Assembly: GCA_903841185.1 (NCBI GenBank) | Contig: CAIMIV010000012.1 | Coordinates: forward strand, 86-64,085 | Direction: 5' to 3' | DNA: 64,000 bases | DNA from: an uncultured bacterium | Lineage (GTDB): Bacteria; Patescibacteriota; Minisyncoccia; Moranbacterales; UBA2206 | In this document: positions 4,176 to 7,155 of the stretch, in pieces | How positions within the stretch are numbered: position 1 is the first letter of the stretch | Layout of the letters: each line of letters starts with the position of its first letter | The notes under the pieces: generated by a model | The model's input: the letters and a program-made list of their open reading frames with translations, nothing else | What the model was told of the DNA's origin: nothing | Database searches by the model: none | Translations under genes and position numbers: made by a program

Positions 4176-4218
4176 ATATAAAAAATGCGCATCGCCGACG
4201 GTTGTCAACGATGCGCAT
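4176..4218 (-). terminator. Rho-independent terminator (ATGCGCATCG...CGATGCGCAT) 3' of the repeat-protein gene
   Basis: Perfect 10-bp inverted repeat followed by a T6 run on the minus strand. An identical copy lies at 6246-6287. Confidence 0.65.
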
Positions 4219-4228
4219 TGCCTCACTC

Positions 4229-5164
4229 TTACAGATCAAACCACTCAATAAGTAGTGGTTGTATAATTGCATGCAGAGCATTATGCTTTTCCAAAAAGGC
4301 AACGGTTTTTTCAGCGCCGATTTCTTGGAAATATACATTCAACAACGGCCGCGCAATCTGGCAAAGATCCCAATCAAATTTATTTTCCTCCAGAATGGCA
4401 AGGGTTTTTTCAGCGCCGATTTCCTGAAAATAAGTCTTCAGAAACGGCTGGGCAACCCGGAAAAGTTTTCTATCAAACATCTTTTTTTTCAAAACAATTA
4501 TGATCTGACTGCCATCAAGCGCTCCGGAGGATATTGCAAAATCACAAAAATTACTGTTAAATCCTCTTTCTTCCAAGATGGCAAAAGTTTCCTCCCCGCC
4601 AATCTCCTGAAAATAGCTGCTCAACAGCGGTTGCACAATATCACTGAAAACACTGTCAAATCCACTTTCTTTCCAAGCAGCAAGAACTTGGCTGCTGTTA
4701 AAAACCCCCATTGACATCACAAGCTCACCAAGATCACTATCAGATCCGCTTCCTTTCCAAGAAGTAAAGACTTGACTGCTATCAAGAACGCCGGAAGATA
4801 TTACAATTCGACAAAGGTTACAGTCAAAAGCACTCTCTTCCAAAACAGTAAACGCTTGTTCTCCGCCAATCTCCTGAAAATAGGTGCTCAGCAGTGGCTG
4901 TGCAATCTCGCAAAGGTCACTATCAAACCTGCCCTCTTCCAAAATGGCAAAAGTTTTCTCCCCGCCAATCTCCTGAAAATGTGCTCTCAACAACGGTTGT
5001 GCAATCTGGCAAAGACCATCATGGAATTTCCTTTCTTTCAAAAGAACCAGTGTTTTTTCGGCCCCAATTTCCTGAAAAAAAACATTGATTTCATCAGCAT
5101 GTTCACCAAGCTTATTAGTAAATATCATCGCTAAAAGTCTGTTCTGATCCATTTTTTCCTCCAT
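4229..5164 (-). CDS. Tandem ~38-aa repeat protein (about 8 repeats of 'YFQEIGGEKTFAILEExxFDxxLCxIAQPLL'), function unknown
   Basis: Internal periodicity is visible directly in the translation. A GGAGGA ribosome-binding site precedes the ATG. It has a paralog at 6299-6976. Confidence 0.6.
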   Translation of the reverse strand: MEEKMDQNRLLAMIFTNKLGEHADEINVFFQEIGAEKTLVLLKERKFHDGLCQIAQPLLRAHFQEIGGEKTFAILEEGRFDSDLCEIAQPLLSTYFQEIGGEQAFTVLEESAFDCNLCRIVISSGVLDSSQVFTSWKGSGSDSDLGELVMSMGVFNSSQVLAAWKESGFDSVFSDIVQPLLSSYFQEIGGEETFAILEERGFNSNFCDFAISSGALDGSQIIIVLKKKMFDRKLFRVAQPFLKTYFQEIGAEKTLAILEENKFDWDLCQIARPLLNVYFQEIGAEKTVAFLEKHNALHAIIQPLLIEWFDL

Positions 5165-5435
5165 ACCGGTTTAAGGTTTGCTTGAGCCTAATTTGTTAAG
5201 TAACAGCTATATTTATTCACTAATCACATATTATTACATATGAACTAACCAGCATAGCATAGTTCTCACTTGGCGTCAATGCAACTTTTCATCTGTGGAT
5301 ACGGCAAGCTCTCGACATTTTTTTAGTTTTGTTATAAGATTAAGCATCCTGTTATTTAAAAAAATAGAAAGAGGTTTTTATCCGCTAGGGCGCTGTTTCA
5401 ATTTTGTATAAACTCAAAAAAAGGAATCTAGCATT

Positions 5436-5996
5436 ATGAAAATAACTATTGTCTTGTTGGTAGTAGTATCCTTATCACTTGGGCTTTATATAATTACCAA
5501 TGGAGAAAAGGAGGCAAATCTAGAGGCGGTTATCACAGAAAATGAAACAGCACTTACAGAAACAACCGACTTTGCTGCAACTTTAAATGAGGTCCTCATC
5601 AAAACTCAGGCTGGCCATTTGATTTCTAGCGCGAATGCTTTGACATTGGCCTTCAAGCTAAATAGCTTAGCGCACAATAAAGATAAGGAGGGTGTTTCAG
5701 TTGTCAGGGGTTATGAAAGTAAGGAGGTGCTGCTAACCTTGCAAAAAATGCGACCACCGCTCTCCGCCTACAATAATTTTCCTATAGATGATTTTGACAA
5801 AAATGTCGAGATCATAACGCAAAGCATTCAAGGGAATGCTAGCGAGGTGGCTATTCGTAAATTATACGAAGTGGCCTCTGGTGTGAACACATTTATCCAA
5901 GAAAATGAAATGGATAAAAAAGCCAAAAAGCCTCGCCCCATCAAAAAACCTCCTTCCTCGCCTGCCTTCACACTTGTGGCAAGCAATGGAAGATGA
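5436..5996 (+). CDS. Hypothetical secreted or membrane-anchored protein
   Basis: N-terminal hydrophobic helix (MKITIVLLVVVSLSLGLYII). No recognisable domain. Confidence 0.45.
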   Translation: MKITIVLLVVVSLSLGLYIITNGEKEANLEAVITENETALTETTDFAATLNEVLIKTQAGHLISSANALTLAFKLNSLAHNKDKEGVSVVRGYESKEVLLTLQKMRPPLSAYNNFPIDDFDKNVEIITQSIQGNASEVAIRKLYEVASGVNTFIQENEMDKKAKKPRPIKKPPSSPAFTLVASNGR

Positions 5997-6245
5997 TTTA
6001 TAGGTCCTGTTTATGATCTCTCTTTCGTCGCGAAAGATTGAAATTTCGAGCGAAAATTGTGAAAAATGAGGAGGAATATCTGGATATTTCGACGAGTTTT
6101 GAACAATTTGCAGCCGGAATTTCAATTTTGTAGCAGAATACGGAGATTATGAACAGACCTTAATCCGAATCTCGCAGAAAATATTCTGCGGATTCGGTTT
6201 TTTTATACAAAAAAACACTCCCACATGGAGTGCTTCATTTTAACT

Positions 6246-6287
6246 CATAAAAAATGCGCATCGCCGACGGTTGTCAACGATGCGCAT
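6246..6287 (-). terminator. Rho-independent terminator, duplicate of the one at 4176-4218
   Basis: Same ATGCGCATCG/CGATGCGCAT hairpin followed by a T-run. Confidence 0.65.
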
Positions 6288-6298
6288 CACTTCACTCG

Positions 6299-6976
6299 CT
6301 AGAGATAGAACCATCGAATAAGCAATGGCCGCGCTATTTCACACAAAACACCATGCTCATCATGTTCTTTCAAGAAGGCAAGGGTTTTATCTTTGCCAAT
6401 CCCCTGAAAATATAGATTCAGTAGTGGCCGTGCAATTTGGCAAAGACAATAATTAAATTCATGCTCTTTCAAGATGGTAAATGTTTTTTTCCATCCGATT
6501 TCCTGGAAATAGGTACTCAGCAGCGGTTGTGCAATCTCACAGAGATTATTGTCAAATTCTTTCTGTATCAAAATAACCATAACCTGACTGCCATCGAGAG
6601 CTCCGGAAGATATTGCAAGAGCACAAAGATTACAATCAAATCCGCTTTTTTTCAAGATAGCAAAGGTTTTTTTCTCACCCGCCACCTGGAAATATTCCAT
6701 TAATGGTAGTTGCGCAATCTGGCAAAGATCGAAATTAAAATTATTTTCTTTCAGTATGGTGCGCGTTTTTTCATCGCCAATTTCCTGAAAATATACCCTT
6801 AATAGCGGTTGTGCGATCTTGCAGAGATCATGATGGAATTTCTTTTCTTTCAAAACAGCCATGGTTTTTTCGGCGCCGATTTCTTGAAAAAAAACTTTGA
6901 TTTCATGAGCATGCTCACCAATCATATCCGTAACTATCATCGCAAAAAATCTGTTCTGATCCATTTTTTCCTCCAC
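6299..6976 (-). CDS. Tandem ~38-aa repeat protein, paralog of 4229-5164
   Basis: N-terminus is almost identical to the first copy (MEEKMDQNR..EIGAEKT), with the same repeat unit. The promoter-proximal sequence is duplicated as well. Confidence 0.6.
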   Translation of the reverse strand: MEEKMDQNRFFAMIVTDMIGEHAHEIKVFFQEIGAEKTMAVLKEKKFHHDLCKIAQPLLRVYFQEIGDEKTRTILKENNFNFDLCQIAQLPLMEYFQVAGEKKTFAILKKSGFDCNLCALAISSGALDGSQVMVILIQKEFDNNLCEIAQPLLSTYFQEIGWKKTFTILKEHEFNYCLCQIARPLLNLYFQGIGKDKTLAFLKEHDEHGVLCEIARPLLIRWFYL

Positions 6977-7155
6977 ACTGGTTTAAGGTTTAGTTGAACC
7001 TAATTTGTTAAGAAACAGCCATGTTTTATTTTATAACCATACATATCAAATCATATGATTAATCAGCATAACATGGCCTTTATCGCACGTCAACAAAAAA
7101 ACACTCCAGCAAGGAGTGCTTTTCTACATATAGTTATTCACCCTTTCCACATTCA

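What the first reader, a model, noticed from the sequence alone, without database searches (positions are those of the whole stretch)
4176..7040. Duplicated paralog pair of ~38-aa tandem-repeat proteins, copied together with terminator and promoter regions
The proteins at 4229-5164 (311 aa) and 6299-6976 (225 aa) share a near-identical N-terminus and an uncharacterised ~38-residue repeat (…YFQEIGGEKTFAILEExxFDxxLCxIAQPLL…). The 5' UTRs (5165-5230 and 6977-7040) and the 3' terminators are also duplicated, so this is a recent segmental duplication. The repeat does not match common repeat families (TPR, HEAT, LRR, ankyrin) by eye. Repeat-number variation between the copies (about 8 vs 6) suggests an expanding and contracting surface or scaffold protein.
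Basis: seen in the sequence. Interest (0 to 1): 0.55.

Follow-up and report, generated by a model that had tools for sequence, protein, structure and literature searches.

The report
Orphan helical-repeat protein gene pair
Two neighbouring genes in an uncultured sulfate-reducer-like bacterium (Desulfobulbales) encode all-helical proteins built from a 33-residue repeat that matches no protein family anywhere; the copies are old rather than recent, and their function is still unknown.

Summary
Two minus-strand genes, A (4229-5152, 307 aa) and B (6299-6964, 221 aa), are paralogs at 62% identity. A carries an extra block of three repeat units. Each gene was copied as a whole transcription unit: -35/-10 promoter, about 90-nt leader, GGAGG ribosome-binding site, coding sequence and a 16-bp hairpin terminator.

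- The main period is 33 aa (99 nt), not 38. Units are modular: a 23- or 28-aa core, with or without a 10-aa QPLLxxYFQE tail.
- There are 9 units in A and 6 in B.
- The duplication is not recent. dS is about 1.3 (saturated) and dN/dS is 0.18.
- Despite this, the terminator is 41/41 identical and the 5' third has dS of only 0.48. That points to constraint or gene conversion.
- I found no signal peptide by inspection of the N-terminus.
- Other samples show no repeat-number variation; their contigs are 100% identical.

The family is an orphan. An exhaustive HMMER search of 1.84 billion representative proteins found nothing credible, and neither did Pfam, NCBIfam, PADLOC, PHROGs, PDB, or the genome, metagenome, viral, plasmid and phage scans. 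AlphaFold predicts antiparallel helical hairpins with confidence (pLDDT 89 for B). Foldseek returns only generic helical-repeat folds. A close relative keeps the flanking genes but has different genes in both slots.

The best reading is a lineage-restricted pair of cytoplasmic helical-repeat binding or scaffold proteins. Interest is modest.

The parts
4229..5152 (-). Gene A coding sequence. 307 aa from the ATG at 5152; the ORF also has an in-frame ATG at 5164. It has a 28-aa N-terminal cap plus 9 repeat units. pI 4.6.
   Evidence: dN/dS 0.18 against B; AlphaFold all-helical, pLDDT 80.5
6299..6964 (-). Gene B coding sequence. 221 aa from the ATG at 6964; the ORF also has an in-frame GTG at 6976. 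It has a 28-aa cap plus 6 repeat units. pI 6.2.
   Evidence: AlphaFold pLDDT 89, pTM 0.75
4538..4804 (-). Block of three repeat units present only in A (about 86-88 aa). The register is ambiguous: the DNA alignment places the gap at about 4660-4900. The block includes an 84-nt tandem pair at 4634-4801 and is the low-confidence part of the model.
   Evidence: family D5; pLDDT 52-57
5251..5279 (-). Promoter-like site of A: TTGACG, 17 nt, TATGCT with a TG extension.
   Evidence: aligned with the B copy
7065..7093 (-). Promoter-like site of B: TTGACG, 17 nt, TATGCT with a TG extension.
5153..5244 (-). Leader of A. It holds a conserved block GCTGTTaCTTAACAAATTAGGyTCAAnnAAACCTTAAACC and then GGAGG. 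No stable structure is predicted.
   Evidence: z=+0.78; no Rfam match
6965..7058 (-). Leader of B. Same conserved block and GGAGG as in A.
   Evidence: z=+0.40
4179..4219 (-). Intrinsic terminator of A: 16-bp stem, AACC loop and T-run. It is 41/41 identical to the B copy.
   Evidence: -29 kcal/mol, z=-5.8
6248..6288 (-). Intrinsic terminator of B, identical to that of A.
7093..7121 (-). Second hairpin terminator (AAGCACTCC-N5-GGAGTG-T7), following the SHOCT gene. It is the left copy of a 29-nt direct repeat that brackets the B transcription unit.
   Evidence: (family D7)
6207..6235 (-). Right copy of the same 29-nt hairpin (90% identical), just after B's own terminator. A hairpin with a different stem sequence sits at this position in relative L083.
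5436..5996 (+). Intervening gene for a 186-aa protein with a hydrophobic N-terminal segment (judged by eye) and no family assignment. It is not a member of the repeat family. It is the conserved anchor between the two variable slots that hold A and B.

Best explanation
A and B are a lineage-restricted pair of paralogous, probably cytoplasmic proteins in an uncultured Desulfobulbales bacterium. Each is an array of antiparallel helical hairpins (an alpha-solenoid-type helical repeat).

Unit anatomy. A unit has a 23-aa core, IGxEKTfaiLeExxFDxxLCxIA, or a 28-aa variant, ISSGaLDgSQ...FDxxLxxxA. Either core may be followed by a 10-aa tail, QPLLxxYFQE. The most common unit is therefore 33 aa.

Likely mechanism (inferred). 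The conserved hydrophobic positions (L10, F15, L19, C20, I22, A23, L26, L27, Y30, F31) would pack the repeats together. The variable positions around the inter-helix loop (13, 14, 17, 18) and at 3, 21, 28 and 29 would form a surface that binds a partner, most likely a protein. That surface differs from unit to unit and between the two paralogs.

History.
- Shown: a whole transcription unit (-35 box to terminator) was duplicated long ago, and synonymous sites are now saturated.
- Shown: both copies have since been kept under purifying selection.
- Shown: A differs from B by one block of three units.
- Shown: the shared promoter, leader and terminator have stayed far more alike than silent coding sites.
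- Inferred: this reflects common regulation and/or gene conversion.
For: - Anatomy and paralogy.
- Protein-level selection: dN/dS 0.18, dS 1.29.
- Expression signals on the coding strand.
- Confident all-helical prediction from only two sequences: pLDDT 89, pTM 0.75, with 4-residue loops at the xxF[DNH] motif.
- The best structural resemblance is to generic helical-hairpin superhelices: farnesyltransferase alpha subunit at TM 0.49, plus designed helical repeats, PPR and TPR.
- Variable and conserved positions.
- Paralog differences concentrate at the variable positions, 71% against 29%.
- Most units pair with the unit at the same position in the other paralog.
- No homolog anywhere.
- A relative with 84% identical flanking proteins has other genes in both slots.
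Against: - No direct evidence for any ligand or function. Context gives no help, because both genes are monocistronic and their neighbours are unrelated housekeeping or orphan genes.
- The AlphaFold models rest on a two-sequence alignment. Regular repeats can be predicted with too much confidence, and the middle of A is poorly predicted (pLDDT 52-57).
- The enrichment of paralog differences at variable positions is partly circular, because those positions were defined using units of both paralogs.
- Cytoplasmic location rests only on my reading of the N-terminus as lacking a signal peptide. No predictor was run.
Confidence: 0.55

Rival explanations
1. One reading: a recent segmental duplication of a repeat protein whose unit number expands and contracts quickly, as in a contingency-type surface or scaffold protein.
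For: Promoter, leader and terminator are duplicated with the gene, and the terminator is 41/41 identical. The copies differ in unit number, 9 against 6.
Against: - dS is about 1.3 overall and pS is 0.62, so silent sites are saturated. Only the first 60 codons are younger-looking (dS 0.48).
- At the DNA level most units are only 60-73% alike.
- Most units pair with the unit at the same position in the other paralog.
- Contigs from other samples are 100% identical.
- By eye there is no signal peptide.
Confidence: 0.07
2. A very divergent member of a known helical-repeat family (ankyrin, TPR/Sel1, HEAT/PBS-lyase, PPR, or fungal DUF7104) that sequence methods fail to recognise.
For: - The 33-aa period equals that of ankyrin and DUF7104.
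- There is one borderline hit to a fungal HET protein made of DUF7104 repeats (E=9e-4).
- Foldseek lists a designer PPR protein at probability 0.96.
Against: - No Pfam repeat family matches, even at E<=1.
- hhalign gives 0.7% probability against an ankyrin consensus, 0.4% against TALE, and 12% against DUF7104 over only 12 columns.
- Foldseek E-values are >=0.02 with TM 0.30 or lower, apart from the generic farnesyltransferase alpha match.
- The predicted unit has no ankyrin-type hairpin loop.
Confidence: 0.15
3. A modular nucleic-acid-binding array in the manner of TALE or PPR, in which one variable loop residue pair per repeat reads one base.
For: Repeats of two helices and about 33 aa. Variation is concentrated in the inter-helix loop (positions 13, 14, 17, 18). 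The long helix contains a proline, as in TALE repeats. The top-probability Foldseek hit is a PPR protein.
Against: - The proteins are acidic or near-neutral: pI 4.6 (46 acidic against 25 basic residues) and 6.2.
- Each unit has conserved acidic positions (E4, E12, D16, E33).
- There is no similarity to TALE by hhalign.
- Unit lengths are irregular (23, 28, 33, 38 aa), which would break a regular reading frame along a nucleic acid.
Confidence: 0.05
4. Not real genes: chance ORFs kept open by a non-coding repetitive DNA array. The opposite strand also has long ORFs.
For: Antisense ORFs of 151, 120 and 88 aa overlap the region. No homolog exists in any database.
Against: - dN/dS is 0.18 in the minus-strand frame despite saturated silent sites.
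- The promoter, GGAGG ribosome-binding site and strong terminator are all oriented for the minus strand, in both copies.
- The fold prediction is confident.
Confidence: 0.04
5. An exported effector or toxin-immunity type protein, delivered or used in conflict with other cells or phages, and gained by horizontal transfer into variable slots.
For: - Both slots beside the conserved 186-aa gene differ from the relative.
- GC is 34-42%, against 48-53% in the flanking core genes.
- Tandem paralogs and helical repeats are common among immunity and effector proteins (general knowledge).
- There is a weak sub-threshold hit to DMP19-like (21.5 bits, cut-off 25).
Against: - No PADLOC or PHROGs hit.
- No toxin, secretion or mobility gene is adjacent.
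- No relative in phage, plasmid or viral collections.
- By eye there is no signal peptide.
Confidence: 0.12

Closest known systems
Alpha-solenoid helical-hairpin repeat proteins (TPR/Sel1-like repeats, and the helical-hairpin repeats of the protein farnesyltransferase alpha subunit)
   Same: Tandem units of about 33-34 aa, predicted as antiparallel helices joined by short turns. The best structural superposition is on the farnesyltransferase alpha subunit (TM 0.49, 207 columns). A conserved hydrophobic core pattern goes with variable surface positions.
   Different: No sequence or profile match to any of these families. The unit is modular: a 23- or 28-aa core with an optional 10-aa tail. In the B model one long, kinked helix of about 29 aa spans the unit boundary, rather than two equal helices per unit.
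Ankyrin repeats and fungal DUF7104 (PF23397) repeats
   Same: A period of 33 aa. The short-helix motif GEK-h-h-a-h-L-E-x-x-G/F-D resembles GEKVMALLLEKRGD of DUF7104 and the second helix of ankyrin repeats.
   Different: Only 12 columns align, at 12% hhalign probability for DUF7104 and 0.7% for the ankyrin consensus. The rest of the unit is unrelated, and no hairpin loop is predicted.
TALE and PPR modular nucleic-acid-binding repeats
   Same: Two-helix repeats of 33-35 aa. The second helix is long and contains a proline. Variable residues lie in the inter-helix loop. A designer PPR protein is the highest-probability Foldseek hit.
   Different: Acidic rather than basic. No profile similarity to TALE. 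Unit lengths are irregular. TM-score to the PPR protein is only 0.30.
De novo designed helical repeat proteins (DHR series)
   Same: These are the top Foldseek hits by E-value. The units are regular and idealised-looking, and are predicted with confidence from almost no alignment.
   Different: The E-values are not significant (0.02-1.5) and the TM-scores are 0.1-0.2. This is a resemblance of class only.

Membership tests
TPR / Sel1 / HEAT / ankyrin / PPR / LRR (Pfam repeat families) | A match to the family profile at or above Pfam's gathering score | tested here: not met
   None of these families appears, even at E<=1, for the whole proteins or for the 15 single units.
Ankyrin repeat | The 33-aa consensus (TPLHxAAxxGHxxVVxLLLxxGAxxN) with a hairpin loop between units | tested here: not met
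   hhalign of the unit profile against a consensus ankyrin array gives 0.7% probability. The models show 4-residue turns and no hairpin loops.
TALE-like repeats | The 33-35 aa consensus (LTPxQVVAIASxxGGKQALETVQRLLPVLCQxHG) in basic, DNA-binding arrays | tested here: not met
   hhalign gives 0.4% probability over 7 columns. pI is 4.6 and 6.2.
DUF7104 (PF23397) | A match to the 31-position Pfam profile | tested here: not met
   There is no Pfam hit for A or B. Profile-profile comparison gives 12% probability over 12 columns. The only link is a borderline E=9e-4 hit of the unit profile to one fungal protein.
DMP19-like (PF14300) | A score at or above the gathering cut-off of 25 bits | tested here: not met
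   A scores 21.5 bits, with no single stretch significant on its own. B has no hit.
Alpha-solenoid structural class | Tandem 20-40 aa units, each forming helix-turn-helix elements that stack into an elongated array | tested here: inconclusive
   The unit period and the all-helical hairpin prediction fit, and the best superposition is on a helical-hairpin superhelix at TM 0.49. However, the geometry is only predicted from two sequences, coordinates could not be inspected, and no fold match is significant.
Rho-independent terminator | A G+C-rich stem-loop directly followed by a U-run, downstream of the stop codon | tested here: met
   A 16-bp stem, a 4-nt loop and a T6 run lie 12-13 nt after each stop codon. 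Folding energy is -29 kcal/mol, z=-5.8. Actual termination was not tested.
Known cis-regulatory RNA (riboswitch or leader) in the 5' UTR | A match to an Rfam model, or a fold more stable than shuffled sequence | tested here: not met
   No Rfam match, even at E<=5. The leaders fold no better than shuffles, z=+0.8 and +0.4.
Anti-phage defence or phage protein families | A match to a PADLOC or PHROGs profile | tested here: not met
   Only a GajB hit at E=0.046 (10 bits) for A, and nothing for B.

The most novel reading that the evidence does not exclude
A and B would be a newly arisen protein family, born in this lineage by amplification of a roughly 100-nt unit, with its own helical-repeat geometry and a per-unit variable loop that works as a programmable binding surface. 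Separately, the 41-nt hairpin that has stayed identical while silent coding sites saturated would be a functional element in its own right, not merely a terminator. It contains the self-complementary ATGCGCAT twice, and it could be a protein-binding site or a 3'-UTR-derived regulatory RNA.
Probability: 0.1. Interest if true: 0.6.

Novelty: new variant of a known kind. Interest (0 to 1): 0.3.

Why it matters
If the prediction holds, this is a helical-repeat sequence family with no relative among about 15 billion predicted proteins. It is confined to one uncultured Desulfobulbales population, yet it has been kept under purifying selection in two copies.

Such families are raw material for questions about how new repeat proteins arise, and they could serve as new binding scaffolds. 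The sharp contrast between saturated silent sites and a perfectly conserved terminator and well-kept 5' end is a small, clean case for studying gene conversion against regulatory constraint in duplicated bacterial transcription units.

Without a partner or a phenotype, it remains an orphan of modest general interest.

Tried and rejected
**Sequence searches that found nothing credible**
- The word-indexed search of 5.8 billion proteins, with A and with B, found only A itself. B is not in that index, although it is called as a gene on contigs.
- An exhaustive HMMER search with a 15-unit profile over 1.84 billion representatives found only A plus two borderline hits. One is a junk repeat. The other is a fungal DUF7104 protein, rejected by hhalign at 12%.
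- Pattern scans of genome, metagenome and viral contigs with the A/B alignment found nothing.
- tblastn against plasmids and phages found nothing.
- PDB sequence searches with both profiles found nothing, apart from one chance 17-residue match.
- Pfam, NCBIfam, PADLOC and PHROGs gave nothing above cut-off.

**Fold searches**
- Foldseek against PDB with both models, and against BFVD, gave no match at E<=0.001.

**Ideas tested and dropped**
- Ankyrin and TALE kinship was suggested by eye and rejected by hhalign.
- A structured leader or riboswitch was rejected.
- The hairpin as a genome-wide repeat element: there are no further copies in the window or in JGI metagenomes.
- Integron attC site: considered from memory and dropped. 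The hairpin is followed by a T-run, each gene has its own promoter, and the core motifs do not fit.
- Synteny around leuB in 80 Desulfobulbales genomes: none carries A, B, the 186-aa gene, SHOCT or SLT nearby.
- Remnants of the relative's slot genes (YkuD, Zn-ribbon ORF) in the window, or of the A/B cassette in the relatives: none.
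Full report
**1. What is there**

On the minus strand lie two ORFs, 4229-5164 (311 aa) and 6299-6976 (225 aa). In both, a GGAGG sits 6 nt before an internal ATG (5152 and 6964). An independent gene call on another contig gives the 307-aa form. I therefore take A as 4229-5152 (307 aa) and B as 6299-6964 (221 aa).

The two are clear paralogs. BLASTP gives E=3e-82. The global alignment gives 62% identity over shared columns, with one 86-88-aa gap in B. tblastn finds no third copy in the 64-kb window.

**2. 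Repeat anatomy**

Cutting the proteins by hand and checking the coordinates gives a 28-aa N-terminal cap followed by 9 units in A and 6 in B. Aligning the 15 units shows a modular design:
- a 23-aa core, IGxEKTfaiLeExxFDxxLCxIA;
- or a 28-aa variant core, ISSGaLDgSQ...FDxxLxxxA;
- either core with or without a 10-aa tail, QPLLxxYFQE.

Unit lengths are therefore 23, 28, 33 and 38 aa, with 33 the most common. TRF reports a 99-nt period.

Conserved positions are G2, L10, F15, L19, C20, I22, A23, Q24, P25, L26, L27, Y30, F31 and Q32. The most variable are 3, 13, 14, 17, 18, 21, 28 and 29.

**3. The duplicated segment is one whole transcription unit**

Similarity between the two loci starts exactly at the -35 hexamer (5279 / 7093) and ends two bases after the terminator T-run (about 4176 / 6245). 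It takes in:
- a TTGACG-17-TATGCT promoter with a TG extension;
- a leader of about 90 nt with a conserved block;
- GGAGG and the coding sequence;
- a 16-bp hairpin with an AACC loop and a T-run (-29 kcal/mol, z=-5.8).

The leader block and the hairpin each occur only at these two places in the window, with zero expected by chance. The leaders match no Rfam family and fold no better than shuffled sequence.

**4. Age and selection**

A Nei-Gojobori count on 218 aligned codons gives pS 0.62, dS 1.29, dN 0.23 and dN/dS 0.18. The proteins are under purifying selection in this frame, and the duplication is old.

Divergence is uneven. The first 60 codons have dS 0.48, and the promoter-to-codon-60 stretch is about 83% identical. 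The last 47 codons have dS 1.73. Yet 12-13 nt after the stop codon, the 41-nt hairpin plus T-run is 41/41 identical. Even at 83% per-site identity the chance of 41/41 is about 5e-4, and at silent-site identity it is below 1e-12.

Recency cannot explain this. Either short gene-conversion tracts or sequence-specific constraint on the flanks is needed, and I cannot tell which.

Most units pair with the unit at the same position in the other paralog: A1-B1, A7-B4, A9-B6 and, less clearly, A8-B5. The array therefore predates the duplication, and only one three-unit indel separates the copies. Contigs from other samples (L084, L085) are 100% identical to the window, so there is no sign of repeat-number variation.

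**5. Organism and locus history**

The neighbouring leuB is 72-79% identical to Desulfobulbaceae and Desulfocapsaceae genomes. None of those 80 loci shares the local gene order.

The 186-aa gene between A and B (5436-5996, plus strand; hydrophobic N-terminus by eye; no family) has two homologs at about 62% identity. One lies on a 3.9-kb contig from a close relative, with PBP1A and SLT at 84% protein identity and about 80% DNA identity. That contig keeps PBP1A, SLT, the 186-aa gene with its bidirectional terminator, and the leuB terminator. But it has a YkuD gene where A lies, and a Zn-ribbon ORF where SHOCT plus B lie. Neither side carries any trace of the other's genes.

A and B thus occupy two variable slots beside a conserved anchor gene. 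GC there is 34-42%, against 48-53% in the flanking core genes.

The B unit is also bracketed by a 29-nt direct repeat (90% identical, 886 nt apart) of a second terminator hairpin. This looks like a footprint of the insertion or duplication event. A hairpin with a different stem sequence sits at the right-hand position in relative L083.

**6. What the proteins are**

No family matches them:
- Pfam gives only sub-threshold noise: DMP19 at 21.5 bits against a cut-off of 25, and sigma-70 region 1.2 at 20.6 against 22, through the YxxEIG motif.
- NCBIfam, PADLOC and PHROGs give nothing.
- An exhaustive HMMER search of 1.84 billion representatives with the unit profile returns only A itself and two hits near E=1e-3. 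One is a degenerate repeat. The other is a fungal HET protein made of DUF7104 repeats, and profile-profile comparison gives only 12% probability over 12 columns.
- PDB sequence searches and the genome, metagenome, viral, plasmid and phage scans are all negative.

AlphaFold gives all-helical models. For A, pLDDT is 80.5, with a weak middle at 52-57 over the A-specific units. For B, pLDDT is 89 and pTM 0.75. Helices are joined by 4-residue turns at the xxF[DNH] motif. In B, the long helix runs across the unit boundary with a possible kink at the EIG glycine.

Foldseek finds nothing significant in PDB or BFVD. The best superposition is the helical-hairpin superhelix of the farnesyltransferase alpha subunit (TM 0.49). 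The rest are designed helical repeats, PPR, TPR and HEAT proteins. Resemblances to ankyrin and TALE repeats that I saw by eye were not borne out by hhalign.

By eye the N-terminus has no signal peptide. A is acidic (pI 4.6; 46 acidic against 25 basic residues) and B is near neutral (pI 6.2). This argues against nucleic-acid binding.

**7. Most likely mechanism**

Shown:
- two expressed-looking, selected, paralogous helical-repeat proteins;
- an ancient duplication of a whole transcription unit;
- restriction to this lineage.

Inferred:
- They are cytoplasmic helical-hairpin arrays.
- The conserved hydrophobic positions stack the units.
- The variable loop and surface positions form a binding surface, most likely for proteins, that has diverged between units and between paralogs. 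Paralog differences fall at variable positions 71% of the time against 29% elsewhere, although this test is partly circular.
- The shared promoter and leader suggest co-regulation.

The specific partner and role are unknown. Rival readings are weighed in the rivals section.

**8. Verdict**

This is a new, orphan variant of the well-known helical-repeat kind. Interest is modest (0.3). The unexplained perfect conservation of the terminator, and the possible recent birth of the family, are the only features that could raise it.

Noticed in passing
window 20204-21771 (-): A complete 16S rRNA gene, with no 23S, 5S or spacer tRNA anywhere in the 64-kb window. Protein-size ORFs lie immediately downstream. 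The rRNA genes appear to be unlinked.
   Followed up: partly
window 6207-6235 and 7093-7121 (-): A 29-nt direct repeat (90% identical, 886 nt apart) of a terminator hairpin, AAGCACTCC-N5-GGAGTG-T7, brackets the whole B transcription unit. It may be a footprint of how the copy was inserted.
   Followed up: partly
window 3902-5396 and 6212-7500, compared with L081 1595-2479 and 3130-3760: The two slots beside the conserved 186-aa gene hold different genes in a close relative: YkuD instead of A, and a Zn-ribbon DnaG-like ORF instead of SHOCT plus B. PBP1A, SLT, the 186-aa gene and the leuB terminator stay syntenic. In a third contig (L083) the slot downstream of the 186-aa gene holds rplT-rpmI.
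   Followed up: yes
window 5436-5996 (+): A 186-aa protein with a hydrophobic N-terminal segment (by eye) and a lysine/proline-rich C-terminal tail. It matches no family in Pfam, NCBIfam, PADLOC or PHROGs, and only two homologs (about 62% identity) exist in the protein collection.
   Followed up: partly
window 23619-24410 (-): A 263-aa ORF with an N-terminal Pfam EAD9 domain (effector-associated domain 9; E=2e-6, 27.7 bits against a cut-off of 25). To my knowledge this domain is described in NLR-like conflict systems.
   Followed up: no
window 11458-23575: Seven of the ten ORFs scanned here have no Pfam family at E<=1e-5: 11458-11928, 12508-13011, 15359-15817, 17113-17832, 18129-18701, 18971-19930 and 22907-23575. 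This suggests that lineage-specific genes are common in this stretch.
   Followed up: no
window 4185-4218 and 6254-6287: The conserved terminator stem contains the self-complementary octamer ATGCGCAT twice. Antisense ORFs in both loci start inside the hairpin (MRIADGCQRCA...), which is probably coincidence.
   Followed up: no
window 7156-7410 (-): An 84-aa protein with a Gly/His/Cys-rich middle ([10 protein letters not shown]) and a C-terminal SHOCT domain (E=3.6e-11), lying between leuB and B. It is absent from the relative's locus.
   Followed up: no
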